Assembly: GCA_015062245.1 (NCBI GenBank)
Contig: SUVA01000006.1
Location: forward strand, 1,753-65,752
Direction of reading: 5' to 3'
Origin: Alphaproteobacteria bacterium
Lineage (GTDB): Bacteria; Pseudomonadota; Alphaproteobacteria; CAAHEQ01; UBA3637
DNA: 64,000 nucleotides
The notes beneath the pieces were generated by a model, which did no database searches, was not told the origin of the DNA, and saw only the letters and a list, made by a program, of their open reading frames with translations. This document shows, one piece after another, positions 12,892 through 50,114 of the stretch (positions are counted from its first letter, which is position 1; every line of letters starts with the position of its first letter). The translations under genes and the position numbers were made by a program.

Positions 12892-14262
12892 ATGCGTATT
12901 TTAATTGCAGGTGCCGGTGAAACAGGGATTGCTTTGGCCCGATATTTAAGGGCCGAAAATCATGAAATTGTTATGATAGATAAAAATCCGGATGCTTTGG
13001 AAGGTGTTAGTGAACAGCTGGATATTCAAACGCTGACGGGTTCATGTGATTCGCCTTTGATCTTGGAGAGGGCAGGTGCCGACAGTGTTGATATTTTGTT
13101 GGCAATGACAGGTGATGACCAAAGTAATATCATTGCCTGTTCTTTGGCAAAAGAATTGTTTCGGGTTTCCAAAAGAATTGCACGGGTTTCGTCAAATGAT
13201 TATTTAATGCCGAAATATTCTAATTTTTTAAAGGCGTTATCGGTTGATGTTGTTGTATCACCTGAAGTTGAAACAGCAAATCAGATTTTAACGGCTTTAT
13301 CTATCAACGGTGCTACTGATATGACAATATTGGGCCGTGGTTTGGTGCGTTTTTTGGGATTGAAGTGTCGTTCGGATATTCCTTTGTTGGGAAAAACATT
13401 ATCACAATTGAAACGCCAATTGGAGGAATTAAATATATCCGTTGTGGCGGTTGTTCGCCGGCATCAATTGATGGATTTGAAAAAAGTAACCTTACAAGTA
13501 GGTGATGAAGTTTATTTCTTTGTTGATACGGTTCATTTGCCGTATTCATTGGATTTATTCGGTTGTTCGGAAATGTCGTTGGATTATGTTTTGATGTATG
13601 GTGGGGGTTCAGTTGGTTTTCAAACGGCCAAAGCCTTGGAAAACGATTCAGATGACAGCCAAATCACCCTGTTAGAACGAGATAAAACCAGGGCCGGCTT
13701 TTTGGCGGAACACTTGAAAAGAACTTTGGTGATTCATGGGGACGGTTTTGATGATACGGTTTTGGATGATTTGGATTTGCGTGCCAATCAGGTCAGTATT
13801 GCCACCACTCAATCCGATGAAAACAATGTATTGTTATCTTTGATTGCCAAGCGTGCCGGAGTGCGTCGCACATGTGCTTTGGTCAGAAATACCCTTTATA
13901 AACAGTATTTGCGTGGATTAGGGGTTGATATTTTAATCAATCCGAATGCGGTGATGGTGTCGGCTGTTTTGCAATGCTTAAGAAAGGGGCGCCTGCAAAA
14001 CGATTACTTTTTGCAATCGGGTATGGGTGAAGTTTTGGAAATAGAAGCATTAAAAACTTCCCGTATCACCAGCTTGCCTTTTGAAAGGTTAAAAATTCCA
14101 AATGGTGTTCAAATCGGCGGCGTTTTGCGTAAAGGTAAATTTATTCGTCTGCATAAAGGATTTCGTGTAATGGAAGGCGATAAGGTTTATGTTTTTGTAC
14201 AACGTGGTCAGGTGGCCCGTGCCGAAAAATTATTTACGGTGAGGTTGGCATTTTTTACATGA
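12892..14262 (+). CDS. trkA: Trk potassium uptake NAD-binding subunit
   Basis: Two RCK units (IAGAGETG, GGGSVG); ATG 12892 follows AAGGAGG. Confidence 0.93.
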   Translation: MRILIAGAGETGIALARYLRAENHEIVMIDKNPDALEGVSEQLDIQTLTGSCDSPLILERAGADSVDILLAMTGDDQSNIIACSLAKELFRVSKRIARVSSNDYLMPKYSNFLKALSVDVVVSPEVETANQILTALSINGATDMTILGRGLVRFLGLKCRSDIPLLGKTLSQLKRQLEELNISVVAVVRRHQLMDLKKVTLQVGDEVYFFVDTVHLPYSLDLFGCSEMSLDYVLMYGGGSVGFQTAKALENDSDDSQITLLERDKTRAGFLAEHLKRTLVIHGDGFDDTVLDDLDLRANQVSIATTQSDENNVLLSLIAKRAGVRRTCALVRNTLYKQYLRGLGVDILINPNAVMVSAVLQCLRKGRLQNDYFLQSGMGEVLEIEALKTSRITSLPFERLKIPNGVQIGGVLRKGKFIRLHKGFRVMEGDKVYVFVQRGQVARAEKLFTVRLAFFT

Positions 14263-17200
14263 TAAATCAAATTTACAGTGGGGTTCCTGATGGCTATGAA
14301 GCTTTTGTTTTGGTAAAACAGCTTCAAAAGGGGCATGTATTGTATGTGGCCTCGGATGAAAAAAAAGCAATGCGGACTTATGAAACATTGTTGCGTATTT
14401 TTCCAAAAATTCCGGTTTTGTTCTATCCTGCATGGGATACGGTTCCTTATGACAGAACATCACCTTCATCGGATATCGTTGGTAATCAGTTGGATACATT
14501 GATTCAATTACAACGTTTGAAAAAAAACACTGTTGTTATTACCTCGGTGCCGGCTGTTTCTCAATTGATTCCGCCGACTGATGTTTTTTCAAAATCCATT
14601 AAAAAATTGGCTGTTGGTGATAAGGTTGATTTTGATGAATTAAAGTCTTTTTTGGTTCGGTTGGGTTATCAATCCACGGATGTGGTGATGCAGGCGGGTG
14701 ATTTTGCCGTTCGGGGTGAGATTGTGGATATTTTTACACCGGGGCTTTCTTTACCTGTGCGGTTGGATTTTTTTGATGATGAACTGGAAAGCATTCGCTT
14801 TTTTAATCCCACCACGCAAAGAACAACGGATATTTTGAAAGAATTTGAAATAAAGCCGGTACGCTTGTTTGAATTGACCGAAGACAATTGTCATTTATTT
14901 CGTTCACGTTATCGTGAATTATTTGATAATCCTGTTCAGGATATGATTTATCAGGCTGTATCACAAATGCGTTATATGGATGGGATGGAACATTATTTGC
15001 CACTTTTTTATTCCCAAATGGTTTCTTTATTTGATTATTTGCCGAATGCAACCGTTTTTGTGGGGACAACCTTTGAAGAATCCCTTAAAGCACGAGAAGC
15101 TCAGGTCAATGATTATTATCAGGCCAGAAGTCAGTTTCAATCACCCAATGCGCCGGCCTATCATCCGTTACCGCCGGATTTGTTTTTTATCAGTTCGGAT
15201 TCCATGAATCAGTATTTGAAAAAACAAAATGTGATTCGTTTAACACCGTTTCAAAGTGAAAAAAGTAAAAATCAAGGGGCAACACCTTCACGGGATTTTG
15301 TAGATATTCGTGTTCAAAAAGATAAAGATTTGTTTTTGGAAATTGCCGATTATGTGCGTTCTTGTCCCAAAAGGGTGGTTATGACAACTTTAACGGAAGG
15401 GGCGGGGGATCGCTTGGTGGCTTTGTTTAAAGAAAAAGAGCTTGCCTTGAACTTTTCAGATGATTTTAATCAAGCCCTTAAAAAAGCCCCATCTGTGATG
15501 GTGGCCCCTTTTGAAACAGGCTTTCAAACCGAAGATTTACTTGTTTTAACTGAAACGGATATGTTTGGGCAACGCCTGCAATCTTTACCTAAACGCCGTA
15601 AGGCCCAAGATTTTATTGCCGATATTTCCTCTTTATCCAAGGGGGATTTGGTGGTTCATACACTTCACGGCATCGGTCGTTTTGTCGGCTTGGAAACAAT
15701 ACAGGTGGCTGGTGCTGCCCACGATTGTTTGTTGTTGGAATATGCCGAAAATGCCCGTTTATTTGTGCCGGTTGAAAATACGGACGTCCTTTCTCGTTAT
15801 GGCTCAGGTGAGGTGGCATTGGACCGTTTAGGTAATCCTTCGTTTGCCAATCGTAAAGCCAAACTTCAAAAAGACTTAATGCAAATGGCGGATAAGTTGA
15901 TGAAGATTGCGGGTAAGCGTGCCCTACATCAAATGCCAAAAATTTTGGCCCCCCATGGTTTATATCAGGAATTTTGTGCCCGTTTTCCCTATACTGAAAC
16001 AGAAGATCAACTGCGAACAGTTTCGGAAATTGAATCAGATTTATCAATGGGCAAGCCTATGGATCGTTTGGTGTGTGGTGATGTTGGTTTTGGTAAGACG
16101 GAAGTGGCTATGCGGGCGGCCTTTTTGGCTGTTATGGCCGGATATCAGGTGGCTGTGATTGCCCCCACCACATTATTGGCCAGACAGCATACACAAAATT
16201 TTATTCAACGTTTTGATGGTTTTCCTATTCGTATCGCTTCACTTTCCAGATTAGTGTCGGCCCGTCAAAGCAAACAAGTCAAAGACGAATTACAAAAAGG
16301 TTCTTTGGATATTGTTGTGGGGACGCATGCCTTACTTTCAAAAACTTTATCGTTTAAAAATTTAGGGTTGGTGATTGTGGATGAAGAACAACACTTTGGT
16401 GTCAAACATAAAGAACGTTTAAAGGAAATGCAAACAGGCGTTCATGTTTTGACTCTAACAGCCACCCCCATTCCACGCACTTTGCAATTATCGTTGTCGG
16501 GTGTTCGTGATTTATCGGTGATTGCCACACCGCCCGTGGACAGATTGGCCGTTAAAACCTATGTCATGTCCTTTGATCCGGTTGTGATGAAAGAGGCAAT
16601 TTTGCGTGAAAATTTTCGTGGTGGTCAAACCTTTGTCGTGGTTCCCCGAATTTCGGATATGGATGATGTCTATGATGATTTGAAAATACTCTTGCCTGAT
16701 TTGAAAATGGTCAAAGCGCATGGGCAAATGCCCCCCACTCAGTTGGAAAAAATAATGTCTGATTTTACCCAAGGCGATTATGATGTTTTAATTGCCACCA
16801 GTATTATTGAATCCGGTCTTGATTTACCCCGTGTCAATACAATGATAGTCTATCGGGCCGATATGTTTGGTTTGGCCGGTCTTTATCAGTTGCGTGGTCG
16901 GGTCGGGCGAGGCAAACAAAAAGCCTATGCTTATTTGACGACCACGGGAAAATTATCCGAAAATGCCCGTAAACGTTTGGAGGTTATGCAAAAACTGGAT
17001 TCTTTGGGGGCAGGCTTTATGTTGGCCAGCCATGATTTGGATATTCGTGGGGCGGGTAATTTATTGGGTTCAGAACAATCGGGGCATATTCGTGAAATTG
17101 GTGTGGCGCTGTATCAAAAGATGTTGGCCGAAGCCGTTCAATCTTTAAAACACGATAAAACAAAATCGGTGGATATGGATTTTTCACCGCAAATTTCCGT

Positions 17201-46897: not shown

Positions 46898-46973
46898 GAG
46901 TGCGTAGCTCAGCTGGTAGAGCACCTGACTTTTAATCAGGTGGCCGAGGGTTCGAATCCCTCCGCGCTCACCA
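46898..46973 (+). tRNA. tRNA-Lys (anticodon TTT)
   Basis: 76-nt cloverleaf; cctga-cttttaa-tcagg anticodon arm, GGTTCGAATCC T arm, CCA end. Confidence 0.97.
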
Positions 46974-47109
46974 CTTATAAGTCCTTGTTTTTCAAGGACT
47001 TTTCTTATGCTTGGTATGCGAGCTTGGTTACGCCCCATCTTCCAAAAAGCCCTTTAATTCCATGCACTTATAAAATTAGATTGCATGCAAAATCTATACC
47101 CTAAAGCCC

Positions 47110-47141
47110 TGTGATGCAAAGTGTGATGCAACTGTGATGCA
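47110..47141 (+). repeat. Three direct TGTGATGCA repeats (candidate integrase arm sites)
   Basis: At 47110, 47122 and 47133; variants at 48057 and 48068. Confidence 0.75.
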
Positions 47142-47180
47142 CATTCTACCTCGTAAGTCATTTTAGTTATATTTTACAAT

Positions 47181-47215
47181 AAATAAAAAATAACCTCACA
47201 AAAAGTGAGGTTATT
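47181..47215 (-). terminator. Terminator of the cassette-1 gene
   Basis: aataacctcac-aaaaa-gtgaggttatt with a T run on the minus strand. Confidence 0.75.
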
Positions 47216-47233
47216 AAAAGATATAAATTCTTA

Positions 47234-47953
47234 TTAACGTTCAGAACCAGACCTTTGTTTCAAAAGACGTGGTGTTTTATTAGCCGCCGCAGAAAGGAGA
47301 GATTTAAGTCCTGTCTTTACTACAACTTTTCCATCAGAATCATCCTCATAGACTGTAACCTTACCTTCTGCATCTTTCACTAAAGTCCGTCCTGGACGCC
47401 CCATTGTATCAAATGCAGAATGTTCTTTAATCTCCATTACTTTTCCTGCATTATCTTTGTGAATTTCACTAATAATATATCCCTTTTCGTCATACCCTAA
47501 TTCAATACTTTTTACTGTTCTACCAATCCCATCCTTTATAATTGTTTTTATAGCGTTTCCATTTTCATCAAACGTGTCTTCAAAGATTGATGTTATATTG
47601 CCATTTTCATCCTTCTTGAATTCAGTATCTCCTAGTAGTTTACCATTAGCATCTTTATGATTAATTAGTCTAACACTTGGGTCTTCATTTGCAGTTCCAT
47701 CTTCATTAAGGATATATTCATCAGTACCTACTACTTTACCATCTGCATCCTTTATGATTACAGCAGTATTATTTCCTTTTTCATCAAAGATCCATTCCTC
47801 TGTACTTGTTACTTTACCATTCGCATCTTTAAAAGACTGAATACCTTTTCCTGTTTTTTCATCAAATCTCTGCTCCACAGTGGATAATACTTTCCCTGTT
47901 TCATCTCGTTCAAATATTGTCTTACCTTCTTTGAAATATTGTATAACTTTCAT
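47234..47953 (-). CDS. Orphan beta-hairpin repeat protein (YD/RHS-like repeats)
   Basis: Repeated KD[AG]xG[KR]V...[FY]DE[KN]G units; tail RLLKQRSGSER. Confidence 0.75.
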   Translation of the reverse strand: MKVIQYFKEGKTIFERDETGKVLSTVEQRFDEKTGKGIQSFKDANGKVTSTEEWIFDEKGNNTAVIIKDADGKVVGTDEYILNEDGTANEDPSVRLINHKDANGKLLGDTEFKKDENGNITSIFEDTFDENGNAIKTIIKDGIGRTVKSIELGYDEKGYIISEIHKDNAGKVMEIKEHSAFDTMGRPGRTLVKDAEGKVTVYEDDSDGKVVVKTGLKSLLSAAANKTPRLLKQRSGSER

Positions 47954-48128
47954 ATATTTTCCTTTCTTTGATATTTGACCTCAAACAACTATATTTAACA
48001 TAAACCAACGATAAAATCAAGCACTTTTTTTCATATTTTTCTTAATATATAAAAACTGTGATGCGAGTGCGATGCAAAATGGTGTAAATATTTCAAATAA
48101 CATATTGAAAATAAACGATTATTTTATC

Positions 48129-48153
48129 GGTTGGAGTCCCTCCGCGCTCACCA
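48129..48153 (+). repeat. Duplicated tRNA-Lys 3' end (attR-like)
   Basis: ggttggagtccctccgcgctcacca versus ggttcgaatccctccgcgctcacca. Confidence 0.9.
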
Positions 48154-48463
48154 TTTTGAACAAGTCGTCTGAAAAGGCGACTTGTTCAATTCCAACATCA
48201 ATTCATTCTGCGTTACCACTTGAATTCATTGTGTTTCATTGCTTTACGCATAAAAATTGTCCACTGGACACTTTTTATTTTGCGCAGTTTATTTACAAGC
48301 GTTTAAGCCGGTTCGATTGGACTCAACACAAAAAGCGCCTATTTTCATCAACAATCGAACTCACAATCACGAAAGTACTTGATTTTATTATATTTTATGT
48401 TTTTTGATGCTGTTTAGACGGCCCATCCTACATTCGAATTTTTAAGCTACTTTTATAGGTAAT

Positions 48464-49243
48464 TTACCGCTGTAGATTTTTTAATTTCAAAAAAGGACAA
48501 ACTTGTTGGCTCCCTTTTTCTTTATCCCATAAAACAGTTTGCTTTAAATGATCCTTTTCATCCACTAAAACATGTGTTGCTGATGTGATGGTTAAAGGTT
48601 TTTTTCCAGTATATTTAAAGGCATTTCCCTTTTGATAAGTTGTTTGCATTAATTGAGAATAATCCTCTTTAAATTGAGGGTTGGTATTGCATAATACATC
48701 TACAAGAGTTTGCCATAAAACAGCTTCTGATGCTGGATGAATAGGACTATACTTTTTATAATGGGTAAGTACAAGAGGAAAATCTGAATTAAAAGATGTT
48801 TTCCCCTTAAACTGAAAAATCGTTTTGTCTTCTTCTTTTTGACATGAAATTTCACATATTTTTTTCAAAAATAATTCATTATTGTGCAAGGTAATATTCA
48901 AATTTTTTAAATTTTGATTGATAAAATTATCATATTGATCGAATAACTCAAATAATCCCATGGCATATTCCACATCTATCTGCCATATAGGATATTTCAG
49001 AGATTCTTTCGGAACACTGATTCCCAGAATCAATGCTTCACGTTGGGATAAAGATTTATTTAAAAATCCGGAATTTAACAAATGGATATGGTTTTTAGCC
49101 AAAGTCTTATTTGACCACACATAAAATCCTTTGGCATCAGCATTAGATAAGGTCGTTTTGGCTCCTTCGCGAAAGAATGATTTAAAATCGTTTGTATCTG
49201 TTGCGATGTGATAAAAAGTTATAAATTTATTTTTTAGAGCCAT
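48464..49243 (-). CDS. Orphan protein, paralog of 12000..12785; possible ADP-ribosyltransferase fold
   Basis: Full-length motif conservation with 12000..12785; own promoter at 49262-49290. Confidence 0.72.
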   Translation of the reverse strand: MALKNKFITFYHIATDTNDFKSFFREGAKTTLSNADAKGFYVWSNKTLAKNHIHLLNSGFLNKSLSQREALILGISVPKESLKYPIWQIDVEYAMGLFELFDQYDNFINQNLKNLNITLHNNELFLKKICEISCQKEEDKTIFQFKGKTSFNSDFPLVLTHYKKYSPIHPASEAVLWQTLVDVLCNTNPQFKEDYSQLMQTTYQKGNAFKYTGKKPLTITSATHVLVDEKDHLKQTVLWDKEKGSQQVCPFLKLKNLQR

Positions 49244-49261
49244 TTTTATCCTTTTTCATGT

Positions 49262-49290
49262 ATTATATATGATGTATAAATCTATGTCAA
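49262..49290 (-). promoter_or_regulatory. Promoter of the cassette-2 gene
   Basis: TTGACA-17 nt-TATAAT on the minus strand. Confidence 0.78.
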
Positions 49291-49334
49291 CTTATTTAGC
49301 TCGCGTTCGGCAAGATACCCCTCACCATTTTTTT

Positions 49335-49359
49335 AAGCCGTCCGAAAGGGCGGTTTTTT
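49335..49359 (+). terminator. Intrinsic terminator
   Basis: aagccgtcc-gaaa-gggcggttt followed by a T run. Confidence 0.75.
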
Positions 49360-49389
49360 GCTATAAGGTTTTAGATTTAATTTTTTTAA

Positions 49390-49418
49390 TTGCCTTTTAA
49401 AAGATTTTGTTTTATAAT
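49390..49418 (+). promoter_or_regulatory. Promoter of the structured leader and SLOG gene
   Basis: TTGCCT-17 nt-TATAAT. Confidence 0.7.
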
Positions 49419-49424
49419 GTATTT

Positions 49425-49673
49425 GCTTGGGTGCAATGCCCCTCAAGCTAGGATTTAGTACTCCGATTAGTTGCAAGGGCAGAAATAAATTCTGTCGGCA
49501 TCCGCCATGGGATACGCCGAAAGAGTGTATTAGTTCATGGGTGGATGCCTGCCGAATAAGGTATCCACCCCAATAAGGCAGGACTATTTCTCTTGTGACT
49601 AATAGGTACTAACATCCACCCACCTGAATAAGGTGGGCGAAATGTTAAATAGAACAAAAAAAAGGGGTGGATG
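49425..49673 (+). ncRNA. Highly structured leader RNA of unknown class
   Basis: Long stem 49455-49489 with 49586-49612; GGGTGGATG at 49539 and 49665 with complements at 49497, 49563 and 49613. Confidence 0.55.
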
Positions 49674-50114
49674 ATGGGCAAAAAATGTGCTTTTTTCGGA
49701 CATAGAGATTTGTGCGGAAAATCAGATGAAATTATTCCAAAATTACAAAAAGCAATGATTGATTTAATTCATCAGGGGGTGGATGTTTTTTATGTCGGAA
49801 ATCATGGGGAATTTGATATTCTGTGTTCAAAAATTGCCCGTGATTTAAAAACAATTTATCCTGAAATTCAAGTGATAGCGGTCCTTTGTTATCCAAATGA
49901 ATTGCAATACCTAAAATGTCAATTTACGGATTTTTTGATGCCTTTGGAAATTGAATCAGCCCCCAAACGGGCCTGTATTATCAAACGCAATCAATGGGTG
50001 ATAAAAAATAGCGATTACATAATATCTTATACCCGATACAAAATCGGCGGTGCATATCAGGCCATTCAATACGCCAAAAAAAATCATAAAAACGTAATGC
50101 AAATATCCACTTAA
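49671..50114 (+). CDS. SLOG superfamily protein (YspA/DUF1273-like)
   Basis: CAFFGHR, FYVGNHGEFD, IIKRNQWVIKNSDYIISY, GGAYQAIQYA. Confidence 0.78.
   Translation: MMGKKCAFFGHRDLCGKSDEIIPKLQKAMIDLIHQGVDVFYVGNHGEFDILCSKIARDLKTIYPEIQVIAVLCYPNELQYLKCQFTDFLMPLEIESAPKRACIIKRNQWVIKNSDYIISYTRYKIGGAYQAIQYAKKNHKNVMQIST

What the first reader, a model, noticed from the sequence alone, without database searches (positions are those of the whole stretch)
49390..49673. Multi-state leader RNA that can mask the SD and start codon of a SLOG gene
Seen: a ~250-nt leader after a good promoter. GGGTGGATG occurs at 49539-49547 and again as the SD plus ATG of the gene (49665-49673). Complements lie at 49497-49506, 49563-49570 and 49613-49621, so mutually exclusive pairings exist. 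There is also a long closing stem (49455-49489 with 49586-49612), three AATAAGG repeats and a 21-codon uORF (49537-49602, MGGCLPNKVSTPIRQDYFSCD). Established: P1 C4 and P4 CI RNAs control toxic genes through repeated complementary boxes. Inference: an undescribed riboswitch-like or antisense-type translational control; a 6S-like rod is an alternative fold.
Basis: partly seen in the sequence, partly recalled or inferred. Interest (0 to 1): 0.62.

Follow-up and report, generated by a model that had tools for sequence, protein, structure and literature searches.

The report
Two-state C4-like leader RNA family
The 250-nt stretch before this SLOG gene is one copy of a conserved folded RNA, present up to about 50 times per genome in uncultured gut Alphaproteobacteria, that can adopt two exclusive shapes and probably switches surface-protein genes on or off. 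It resembles phage C4 antisense RNAs but matches no described RNA family.

Summary

The element is not unique to this gene. It is one of about 20 copies in this 1.12-Mb genome. The family occurs in 73 of 80 genomes of the order and in 13 other alphaproteobacterial families. Copies lie mostly before pilin-like and lipoprotein genes, and before SLOG genes.

Two mutually exclusive folds both show covariation:
- **Rod fold:** a long A:A' stem plus the X:C hairpin. This frees box C' to complete an intrinsic terminator.
- **Junction fold:** a three-way junction of C:C', hairpin D and hairpin E.

The junction has the architecture of phage P1 C4 and of sRNA-Xcc1. Its antisense elements face a1/b1-like boxes upstream in the same transcript. 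Sibling copies give only sub-threshold Rfam hits, and the window copy gives none.

In the window copy and four siblings the terminator's U-tract is missing, and the Shine-Dalgarno (SD) region repeats box C. SD masking is therefore plausible but unproven. The trigger is unknown. The uORF and the 6S reading are rejected.

Verdict: a new variant of a known kind.

The parts
49390..49418 (+). Sigma-70-type promoter TTGCCT-17-TATAAT. The transcript start is predicted near 49425.
   Evidence: 10 of 12 matches. Equivalent TTGCA/TTGAC...TATAAT boxes precede the other copies.
49425..49448 (+). P0, the first hairpin of the leader (GCTTGGG...CCCCTCAAGC).
   Evidence: a 5' hairpin at this place in all copies. 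Its AUGCCCC can also pair with the start region in the MFE fold.
49451..49464 (+). H1 hairpin (GGA / TCC stem). Its loop TTAGTAC (49455-61) is the exact complement of J, so it is an a1-like box.
   Evidence: Read. H1 stems of 4-6 bp with varied sequence occur in most of 36 copies. J pairs with its own upstream at -7.8 against -5.6 kcal/mol for cross pairs.
49465..49489 (+). A-distal: the left arm of the long stem, a b1-like locus-specific 'barcode' complementary to the E loop.
   Evidence: own -8.9 against cross -5.1 kcal/mol; own partner ranks 1-3 of 48 in most. 17 of 28 positions vary among five SLOG-type leaders.
49497..49506 (+). X box (GGCATCCGCC), complement of C. It forms the X:C hairpin of the rod fold (anti-antiterminator).
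   Evidence: helix 92.3% paired with 4 compensatory pairs. Invariant in five SLOG-type leaders.
49507..49538 (+). Extra hairpin inserted in the X-C loop. It is specific to the SLOG-associated subgroup.
   Evidence: Alignment. Variable with compensation.
49539..49547 (+). C box GGGTGGATG: the 5' strand of P1 of the three-way junction, and alternatively the partner of X.
49548..49582 (+). Hairpin D: stem CCTGCC/GGCAGG, a symmetric internal loop GAAUAA / CCAAUAA, and a mini-hairpin GGT-ATCC-ACC.
   Evidence: all 6 stem pairs compensatory, 97.8% paired. 0 of 35 positions vary in five SLOG-type leaders. The same AAUA...GAAUAA loop is in the sRNA-Xcc1 consensus.
49583..49605 (+). Hairpin E: CTAT (49584-87) pairs with ATAG (49602-05). 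The loop 49588-49601 is the b'-like barcode.
   Evidence: 98.6% paired; CTAC/GTAG, CCAT/ATGG, CCGT/ACGG and CTGT/ACAG variants. The loop varies at 13 of 14 positions.
49606..49612 (+). J, the junction strand GTACTAA. It is a'-like and pairs with the H1 loop.
   Evidence: It holds the same position as a' in P1 C4.
49613..49621 (+). C' box CATCCACCC: the 3' strand of P1. It overlaps the terminator-like hairpin and is complementary to the SD box.
   Evidence: 98.8% paired with C; 4 covarying pairs. (C':SD -16.8 kcal/mol).
49619..49637 (+). T-like hairpin CCCACCT-GAATA-AGGTGGG. In most family members this is an intrinsic terminator, but here no U-tract follows it.
   Evidence: helix 4; 41 of 48 copies passed the T-count used to call a U-tract; one of these (L041) has only scattered T's. 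This copy has none.
49664..49673 (+). SD box GGGGTGGATG, a repeat of C that ends in the first ATG.
   Evidence: 3 of 10 positions vary among five leaders.
49674..50114 (+). YpsA-like SLOG protein gene. The conserved start is ATG 49674, and an in-frame ATG lies at 49671.
   Evidence: Pfam YpsA 23.1 bits (below the cut-off of 27.7). Homologues carry PF06908. AF2 pLDDT 94.1. The top fold match is B. subtilis YpsA 2NX2 (E 2.9e-8, TM 0.78), followed by DprA.

Best explanation
**What it is.** 49425-49673 is the 5' leader of the YpsA-like SLOG gene. It is one copy of a conserved, multi-copy, two-state leader RNA family.

**The junction fold.** The core (49539-49621) is a three-way junction of the C4/sRNA-Xcc1 type.
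- P1 is C:C'.
- Hairpin D carries AAUAA/AAUAA loops.
- The loop of hairpin E (b') and the 3' junction strand J (a') are complementary to two boxes upstream in the same transcript. These are b1 (49465-89) and a1 (the loop of H1).

**The rod fold.** If a1/b1 pair with a'/b' in cis (rod A:A') and X captures C, the junction is undone and C' is released.
- In most family members C' then completes an intrinsic terminator, which gives OFF.
- In this copy and four siblings the U-tract is gone and the SD region repeats box C. The released C' (or X) can then cover the SD and AUG, which gives OFF at translation.
- ON corresponds to the junction fold.

**The trigger.** The rod is predicted to be about 14-16 kcal/mol more stable. 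ON therefore needs something that blocks a1/b1 while the leader is being made.
- My best guess (about 35%) is RNA. Junction-form transcripts of the same locus would bind the a1/b1 boxes of nascent copies through the locus-specific barcode. They could be terminated, read-through or RNase P-processed, as for P1 C4 and IsrK.

**Shown and inferred.**
- Shown: the family, both folds, the covariation, and the two platform types.
- Inferred: the direction of control, the SD masking, and the trans-acting RNA.
For: **Family and spread.**
- Own genome: 20 copies with E at or below 2e-4. Most follow a recognisable promoter and all lie just upstream of a same-strand ORF.
- 73 of 80 genomes and 15 of 16 genera of the order carry it, with 1-50 copies each.
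- 13 further families of the class carry it.

**Rod fold.**
- X:C, D and T helices: 93.7% paired against 75% in shuffles, with 19 of 25 pairs compensatory.
- A:A' barcode: own -8.9 against cross -5.1 kcal/mol.

**Junction fold.**
- C:C' is 98.8% paired.
- On a plain MAFFT alignment, C:C' + D + E are 98.4% paired with 13 of 19 pairs compensatory.
- The rod is more stable by a mean of 13.9 kcal/mol.

**Likeness to C4.**
- Sibling copies give full-length sub-threshold hits to sRNA-Xcc1 (38.6 bits) and C4 (32.3 bits) with congruent helices.
- The P1 record shows a1-b1-c4-a2-b2-icd. In it b' lies in the P3 loop and a' in the junction strand, as here.

**Platform switch.**
- C':SD is -11.6 to -16.8 kcal/mol only in the five copies without a U-tract.
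- In those five leaders X, C, D, E-left and C' vary at 0 of 68 positions. The first 90 nt of the CDS vary at 45 of 90.

**Precedents.** IsrK (PMC4825925) and the multi-copy processed C4-like sRNAs of A. baumannii (PMC5320573).
Against: **No expression data.** One low-depth RNA contig covers 49369-49617 and starts upstream of the promoter, so it may be DNA.

**SD masking is not resolved.**
- Predicted SD/AUG accessibility is about the same in both folds. The freed X can also pair with the SD box, and P0 pairs with the start region in the MFE fold.
- The T-like hairpin competes with C':SD.
- The five SD-type copies are close relatives, so the link between U-tract loss and SD-box gain rests on few independent events.

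**The C4 relationship is not proven.**
- Rfam gathering scores are not met, and the window copy gives no hit at all.
- My junction model scores P1 c4 at only 7.9 bits.
- No a2/b2-like boxes lie downstream.

**The trans-RNA idea lacks direct support.**
- No Hfq, ProQ or CsrA was found.
- No free-standing junction genes exist that could act in trans. R1 and R2 hit about the same number of copies.
Confidence: 0.55

Rival explanations
1. Ligand-sensing riboswitch. The three-way junction is an aptamer for a small molecule, for example a nucleotide second messenger. Binding stabilises P1 (C:C') and turns the genes on.
For: - The junction-proximal nucleotides are strongly conserved: GGAUG/CAUCC, the AAUAA loops, CUAU and UUNCUAAC.
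- 0 of 68 core positions vary where the CDS varies at 45 of 90.
- The 3' strand of P1 overlaps a terminator, as in classical riboswitches.
- Many copies per genome recall c-di-GMP or T-box regulons.
Against: - The competing rod forms from upstream sequence and is about 14 kcal/mol more stable, which is unfavourable for an ON switch.
- Hypervariable, self-complementary barcodes are not expected of an aptamer.
- The regulated genes have no shared metabolic theme.
- The architecture matches antisense RNAs, not a known aptamer.
Confidence: 0.2
2. Protein-controlled attenuator. An RNA-binding protein recognises the symmetric AAUAA/AAUA loop of hairpin D or the GGA/UCC helices, and tips the balance between rod and junction.
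For: - The symmetric internal loop in D is invariant.
- The three-tier layout (X:C, C:C', T) resembles PyrR- or TRAP-type attenuators.
Against: - No candidate protein was identified.
- Hfq, CsrA and ProQ were not detected by tblastn.
- D is common to both folds, so binding it alone would not select a fold.
Confidence: 0.1
3. No switch. The leader is a constitutive structured 5' UTR, or the precursor of a stable processed sRNA. Genes downstream are expressed by fixed, leaky read-through.
For: - The rod is predicted to dominate thermodynamically.
- The only RNA contig covers the leader and not the CDS.
- C4-like RNAs are processed from leaders (PMC5320573).
Against: Helices specific to the less stable junction fold (C:C', E, H1) are maintained by compensatory changes. 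This is hard to explain if that fold never forms.
Confidence: 0.1
4. Leader-peptide attenuation through the 21-codon uORF (49537-49602), or a 6S-like RNA.
For: The ORF exists, and the MFE fold is rod-like.
Against: - Most family members have no ATG at that place, and no SD precedes it.
- Substitutions are helix-compensating, not codon-wise.
- There is no 6S hit even at E of 10 or less.
- About 20 gene-linked copies per genome do not fit a 6S RNA.
Confidence: 0.02

Closest known systems
c4 antisense RNA of phages P1/P7 (Rfam RF01695) and the immI leader a1-b1-c4-a2-b2-icd-ant
   Same: - A three-helix junction closed by a long P1.
- b' lies in the loop of the last hairpin, and a' in the junction strand just before the 3' strand of P1.
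- a1 and b1 boxes lie upstream in the same transcript, in the same order.
- The RNA is embedded in the leader of the gene it precedes.
- P1 starts with GG and is followed by ACC.

Sources; PMC5320573 for RNase P processing.
   Different: - No a2/b2 boxes overlap the next gene's ribosome site.
- There is an added X box and a terminator or SD box that compete for the 3' strand of P1.
- Hairpin 1 has an AAUAA/AAUA internal loop.
- The setting is chromosomal with tens of copies, not phage immunity.
- Rfam scores are below threshold, and my model does not score P1 c4 significantly.
sRNA-Xcc1 (Rfam RF02221), the integron-borne sRNA of Xanthomonas and Xylella
   Same: - It gives the best sub-threshold Rfam match, full length, in seven sibling copies (29.5-38.6 bits).
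- It has the same three helices, including the AAUA...GAAUAA loop and mini-hairpin in hairpin 1.
- It also occurs in tandem multi-copy arrays spaced about 380 nt apart (PMC12189769).
   Different: - The gathering score of 53 is not reached, and the window copy gives no hit.
- sRNA-Xcc1 is described as a free-standing trans-acting sRNA.
- No upstream target boxes or cis terminator switch have been described for it.
IsrK of Salmonella prophage Gifsy-1 (PMC4825925)
   Same: - It is a leader RNA with its own terminator.
- Read-through transcripts adopt an inactive or an active structure.
- The short terminated form acts in trans on the long form to activate translation.
- This is a working precedent for the self-addressed RNA trigger proposed here.
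   Different: - IsrK is a single prophage locus that controls an anti-repressor and AntQ.
- It is listed as an Hfq-binding RNA in Rfam, and no Hfq gene was found here.
- No sequence match to IsrK was seen.
Group 1 C4-like sRNAs of Acinetobacter baumannii (PMC5320573)
   Same: - It is a large set of C4-type RNAs within one bacterial genome.
- The RNAs are processed from longer transcripts at a GG(W) site.
- They vary mainly in the target-recognition loops.
   Different: - Those RNAs are reported as sRNAs with unknown targets.
- Here every copy is a leader fused to its own target boxes and to an expression platform.
Terminator/antiterminator riboswitches and three-tier attenuators (e.g. PyrR-controlled pyr leaders; the c-di-GMP-II switch before pilA1 of C. 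difficile). From my own knowledge.
   Same: - Anti-antiterminator (X:C), antiterminator (C:C') and terminator (T) overlap in the classical way.
- Both transcriptional and translational platforms occur on one sensor.
- Pilin genes are among the targets.
   Different: - No ligand or protein is known.
- The sensor fold is an antisense-RNA fold with locus-specific barcodes.

Membership tests
C4 antisense RNA (RF01695) | Scores at or above Rfam's gathering score (45 bits) | tested here: not met
   The window copy gives no hit at E of 10 or less. The best sibling (L052) scores 32.3 bits.
C4 antisense RNA (RF01695) | Long P1 that closes two hairpins (three-helix junction) | tested here: met
   C:C', D and E are 98.4% paired, with 13 of 19 pairs compensatory.
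C4 antisense RNA (RF01695) | b' in the last hairpin loop and a' in the 3' junction strand, complementary to a/b boxes of its own transcript | tested here: met
   - The E loop pairs with its own upstream at -8.9 against -5.1 kcal/mol for cross pairs.
- J pairs with the H1 loop at -7.8 against -5.6. In the window TTAGTAC/GTACTAA is a perfect match.
- The positions match those in P1.
C4 antisense RNA (RF01695) | Second target set (a2/b2) overlapping the ribosome site of the next gene | tested here: not met
   Own and cross pairings to the downstream region do not differ (-5.4 against -5.2 kcal/mol).
C4 antisense RNA (RF01695) | Processed by RNase P at the GG that starts P1 | not testable with these tools
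   Only sequence hints exist. P1 starts with G in all copies and with GG in about five of every six, and is followed by ACC or ACU. The genome has rnpB.
sRNA-Xcc1 (RF02221) | Scores at or above Rfam's gathering score (53 bits) | tested here: not met
   Seven sibling copies score 29.5-38.6 bits. The window copy gives none.
sRNA-Xcc1 (RF02221) | Hairpin 1 with an AAUA...GAAUAA internal loop around a mini-hairpin | tested here: met
   Alignment to the family consensus. The feature is conserved across 48 copies.
Riboswitch (ligand-binding leader) | Conserved structured domain whose P1 strand overlaps an expression platform | tested here: met
   (41 of 48 copies passed the T-count used to call a U-tract after T; one of these, L041, has only scattered T's).
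Riboswitch (ligand-binding leader) | Direct binding of a small-molecule ligand | not testable with these tools
   In-line probing or SHAPE is needed.
Leader-peptide attenuator | Conserved short ORF with a ribosome site inside the leader | tested here: not met
   The ATG at 49537 is absent from most copies, there is no SD, and the changes are helix-compensating.
6S RNA | Match to the 6S model; one stand-alone gene per genome | tested here: not met
   No hit at E of 10 or less. There are about 20 gene-linked copies.
SLOG superfamily, YpsA family (PF06908): the downstream gene | YpsA/DprA-type Rossmann-like fold | tested here: met
   AF2 pLDDT 94.1. 2NX2 YpsA E 2.9e-8, TM 0.78, followed by DprA. 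The profile hits DprA at 7e-4 and YpsA at 0.011.
SLOG superfamily, YpsA family (PF06908): the downstream gene | Pfam gathering score (27.7 bits) | tested here: not met
   23.1 bits, E 8e-5. Several homologues at 55-72% identity do carry PF06908.

The most novel reading that the evidence does not exclude
Each leader may be a self-addressed, barcoded RNA switch.
- Junction-form RNA from a locus would bind the a1/b1 boxes of that same locus's nascent transcripts through its hypervariable, locus-specific barcode. This would prevent the rod fold and so sustain its own read-through.
- Each of the dozens of pilin-like and other surface-protein genes would then have an independent, heritable ON/OFF state without any DNA change. 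That would be RNA-based epigenetic phase variation.
- The fast, compensated divergence of the barcodes between orthologues and paralogues would then reflect selection for orthogonality. E loop: 8 of 14 positions vary among three orthologues and 13 of 14 among five leaders, next to an invariant core.
Probability: 0.15. Interest if true: 0.9.

Novelty: new variant of a known kind. Interest (0 to 1): 0.66.

Why it matters
If confirmed, one RNA design governs a large share of the cell-surface gene set in a widespread but uncultured group of gut and rumen Alphaproteobacteria. That set includes pilin-like proteins and small lipoproteins, and the design also covers SLOG proteins.

It would show a phage-type C4 antisense module rebuilt into a cis-acting switch. 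The module carries its own target boxes and either a terminator or a ribosome-site platform.

The family also offers a natural set of orthogonal, barcoded RNA switches. It makes testable the question of how bacteria with tiny genomes and few regulators choose among dozens of surface-protein paralogues.

Tried and rejected
- **Rfam.** Nothing reached gathering on the window, at E of 10 or less on 49250-49750, or on 49525-49650.
- **RNA-seq.**
  - Four metatranscriptome runs were laid on the locus. Only one 253-nt contig at depth 2 matched closely (49369-49617), so this is inconclusive.
  - Laying runs on the C22 array lit up only rplT/rpmI.
- **Phage collection.** blastn found no match.
- **P1 c4.** My junction model (R2) found no candidates on the whole P1 record. 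With filters off it scored 7.9 bits, exactly at c4, which is not significant.
- **Downstream a2/b2-like boxes.** None.
- **RNA chaperones.** tblastn found no Hfq, CsrA or ProQ.
- **Automatic H1 stem test.** It did not differ from its control. I replaced it with an explicit hairpin search.
- **SD accessibility.** Constrained partition functions showed no difference between the two folds.
- **An error of mine.** The 'T hairpin' constraint was mis-registered by two bases, so its energy is not used.
- **Distant SLOG homologues (30-42% identity).** They do not carry the leader.
- **Rejected readings.** The uORF, the 6S-like rod, the third AATAAGG and the 49563-70 box are not conserved features.
Full report
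**1. The observation**

- GGGTGGATG lies at 49539-47 (box C) and at 49665-73 (the SD region plus the first ATG).
- Its exact complement CATCCACCC lies at 49613-21 (box C').
- Partial complements lie at 49497-506 (box X) and 49563-70.
- A TTGCCT-17-TATAAT promoter lies at 49390-418.

The leader folds at -100.5 kcal/mol against -70.4 +/- 4.9 for shuffles (z = -6.1). That fold contains the long stem 49455-89 / 49586-612.

The 9-mer occurs 7 times in the window against 0.49 expected. Three copies lie in the leader and one at 49777 in the SLOG CDS. The other three lie inside long ORFs.

Rfam 15 gives nothing for this stretch, even at E of 10 or less.

**2. It is a family, not a one-off**

The leader recurs in the same 1.12-Mb genome. 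I built a covariance model (R1) from eight in-genome copies.
- R1 finds 20 copies with E at or below 2e-4.
- Most follow a recognisable sigma-70-type promoter, and all lie just upstream of a same-strand ORF.

The downstream genes are as follows.
- About 11 proteins have a type IV pilin-like N-terminus (...KGRSMVEMLGVLAIIGVLSVGG...). Pfam N_methyl is only sub-threshold for these.
- There are five small lipoproteins, three of them in a tandem array.
- There are two YpsA-like SLOG paralogues: the window gene and one on contig 26.
- A few are unknowns.

The spread is wide.
- R1 hits 23 of 41 relatives and all five genera of the family that were sampled.
- A model of the core alone (R2) hits 73 of 80 genomes and 15 of 16 genera of the order, with 1-50 copies per genome.
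- R2 also hits 13 other families among 201 class-level genomes.

The organism is an uncultured gut alphaproteobacterium. A related record is titled 'MAG: Alphaproteobacteria bacterium ... SGB_4814'. The DNA runs that hold the locus are faecal, goat-gut and gut metagenomes.

**3. Anatomy, 5' to 3', in window coordinates**

| Element | Coordinates | Note |
|---|---|---|
| P0 hairpin | 49425-48 | first hairpin of the leader |
| H1 hairpin | 49451-64 | loop TTAGTAC |
| A-distal | 49465-89 | left arm of the long stem |
| X | 49497-506 | complement of C |
| Extra hairpin | 49507-38 | subgroup-specific |
| C | 49539-47 | 5' strand of P1 |
| Hairpin D | 49548-82 | symmetric GAAUAA / CCAAUAA loop and a mini-hairpin |
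| Hairpin E | 49584-87 / 49602-05 | loop 49588-601 |
| J | 49606-12 | junction strand GTACTAA |
| C' | 49613-21 | 3' strand of P1 |
| T-like hairpin | 49619-37 | no U-tract follows |
| SD box | 49664-73 | repeat of C |
| Start codon | 49674 | conserved ATG |

**4. Two exclusive folds, both under selection**

*The rod fold.* The data set is 48 distinct copies from 21 genomes.
- X:C, D, the mini-hairpin and T are 93.7% paired against 75% in shuffles. 19 of 25 pairs show compensatory changes.
- The long A:A' stem is hypervariable, so I tested it without an alignment. Each E loop pairs with its own upstream region at -8.9 kcal/mol on average, against -5.1 for other copies' upstream regions. The own partner ranks 1-3 of 48 in most cases.

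*The junction fold.*
- C also pairs with C'. This pairing is 98.8% paired, covaries at four positions, and falls to 35-54% when the register is slid. It is cleaner than X:C (92.3%).
- The conserved CTAT...ATAG around the E loop is a helix. It occurs as CTAC/GTAG, CCAT/ATGG, CCGT/ACGG and CTGT/ACAG.
- On a plain MAFFT alignment of the core, C:C' + D + E are 98.4% paired, with 13 of 19 pairs compensatory.
- H1 is a 4-6 bp hairpin with varied stems: GGA/TCC, GGG/CCC, AGG/CCT, AAGGA/TCCTT and others. Its loop is complementary to J.

C:C' crosses A:A'. E and H1 are undone by A:A'. The two folds therefore exclude each other.

The rod is predicted to be more stable by a mean of 13.9 kcal/mol, and by 12.4 at the point where C' has just been made. 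For the window copy the figure is 16.3.

**5. Expression platform**

C' overlaps the 5' arm of T.
- 41 of 48 copies passed my T-count for a U-tract right after T. One of these (L041) has only scattered T's, so about 40 have a plausible intrinsic terminator.
- This gives the classical three-tier layout: X:C is the anti-antiterminator, C:C' the antiterminator, and T the terminator.

By my reading of the downstream ORFs, nine of the 48 copies precede SLOG genes.
- Four of them keep a T-rich tail and have no SD complementarity to C'.
- Five have no run of U's (one of these, L041, is the copy noted above). In these the SD region reads GG(G)GTGGAT, and C':SD is -11.6 to -16.8 kcal/mol. Most other copies score between about -3 and -9. 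The five are the window copy, its two orthologues, its paralogue on contig 26, and a copy from another genus.

A terminator platform has therefore been exchanged for a ribosome-site platform, as happens in riboswitch families.

Four cautions apply.
- The five copies are related.
- The T-like hairpin competes with C':SD.
- X and P0 can also pair with the SD and start region.
- Constrained partition functions predict similar SD exposure in both folds.

**6. Selection pattern in the SLOG subgroup**

Across the five SD-type leaders the pattern is sharp.
- X, C, D with its loops, E-left and C' vary at 0 of 68 positions.
- The first 90 nt of the CDS vary at 45 of 90.
- The E loop varies at 13 of 14 positions and A-distal at 17 of 28, with compensation.
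- Even among three orthologues, the E loop changes at 8 of 14 positions next to an invariant core.

**7. What it resembles**

Earlier notes of this scan suggested a link to sRNA-Xcc1, so I scanned 20 sibling loci.
- Seven give full-length but sub-threshold matches to sRNA-Xcc1 (29.5-38.6 bits; gathering 53).
- One matches C4 antisense RNA (32.3 bits; gathering 45). The helices align one to one.

The annotated P1 record shows the layout promoter - a1 - b1 - c4 - a2 - b2 - icd. From its sequence, b' (TCACTAAC) lies in the loop of the last hairpin, and a' (CTGTCAA) lies in the junction strand before the 3' strand of P1.

That is exactly where the E loop and J lie here. Their partners (A-distal and the H1 loop) lie upstream in the a1-b1 order.

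The differences are these.
- No a2/b2 boxes lie downstream.
- X and T (or the SD box) are added.
- The setting is chromosomal and multi-copy.
- My R2 model scores P1 c4 at only 7.9 bits, although at the exact coordinates.

The window RNA is therefore not a member of RF01695 or RF02221 by their own criteria. It shares their architecture and is probably a distant relative.

Published precedents are relevant.
- C4 is cut from its leader by RNase P at the GG that starts P1, and A. baumannii carries many processed C4-like sRNAs (PMC5320573).
- IsrK's short terminated form acts in trans on its own read-through form to activate translation (PMC4825925).
- Xylella has tandem arrays of sRNA-Xcc1, C4 and IsrK-like genes (PMC12189769).
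- Weinberg et al. listed a 'c4-a1b1' motif (PMC2864571).

**8. Mechanism**

*Shown:* two conserved exclusive folds, and platforms that read out the state of C'.

*Inferred:* the rod gives OFF and the junction gives ON. The rod nucleates from upstream single strands and is much more stable. ON therefore needs a factor that blocks a1/b1 (and X) during transcription.

I rank the candidate factors as follows.
- **RNA of the same locus in junction form**, in the manner of C4 and IsrK.
  - It fits the barcodes and their fast compensated divergence.
  - It lacks direct support: there are no free-standing junction genes and no Hfq.
- **A small-molecule ligand** that binds the invariant junction.
- **A protein** that binds the symmetric AAUAA loop.

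**9. The gene**

The 146-aa product is a YpsA-like SLOG protein.
- Pfam YpsA scores 23.1 bits, below its cut-off.
- Homologues carry PF06908.
- The profile matches DprA and YpsA.
- The AF2 model has pLDDT 94.1.
- Its best fold match is B. subtilis YpsA 2NX2 (E 2.9e-8, TM 0.78).

SLOG homologues at 30-42% identity from other settings have no such leader. The RNA therefore belongs to the lineage and not to the gene family.

**10. Rejected**

- **The uORF.** There is no ATG in most copies, no SD, and the substitutions are helix-type.
- **The 6S-like rod.** There is no model match, and there are about 20 gene-linked copies.
- **The third AATAAGG and the 49563-70 box** as family features.

**11. 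Verdict**

This is a new variant of a known kind: a C4-type antisense module turned into a cis two-state leader. It is absent from Rfam and, as far as my searches reach, from the literature. The trigger is unknown.

Noticed in passing
window 49777-49785: A fourth exact GGGTGGATG lies about 100 nt into the SLOG CDS (codons Q-G-V-D-V). The paralogue encodes the same motif with different bases (GGGGTAGAT), so it may be chance or an extra decoy for C'.
   Followed up: partly
L008 / L003 (G000 contig 22, about 13570-14620): There are three tandem cassettes, each with a promoter, a leader and a 59-aa lipoprotein gene. Two CDSs are identical and identity runs back to the terminator. Upstream of it their leaders (barcodes, X loop, D stem) differ strongly, as if leader modules are swapped or evolve much faster than the genes.
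   Followed up: partly
L028 (G000 contig 7, about 123264-123840): One leader copy and its lipoprotein gene start directly downstream of the RNase P RNA gene (rnpB, 262.7 bits) on the same strand.
   Followed up: no
window 46898-49356: Single-gene units of unknown function lie between tRNA-Lys (46898-46973) and the SLOG leader. These are a 239-aa repeat protein and a 259-aa protein, both on the minus strand. A terminator-like hairpin lies at 49335-49356. In related genomes the leader lies right next to tRNA-Lys or hupB, according to earlier notes.
   Followed up: no
G000 contig 24 (448-557) and L056: Between the leader and the pilin-like ORF of some copies lies an inserted palindromic repeat (...CATTGCGAGG...GATTGCTTCAC...). 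It reads through as an odd N-terminal extension (…NRHCEGNAMTEES…).
   Followed up: no
G000 contig 3, 44173-44291: One copy before a 59-aa lipoprotein gene has no visible promoter or A-left arm and follows a coding region. Its junction fold is predicted to be the more stable one, so it may be a constitutively ON or decayed variant.
   Followed up: no
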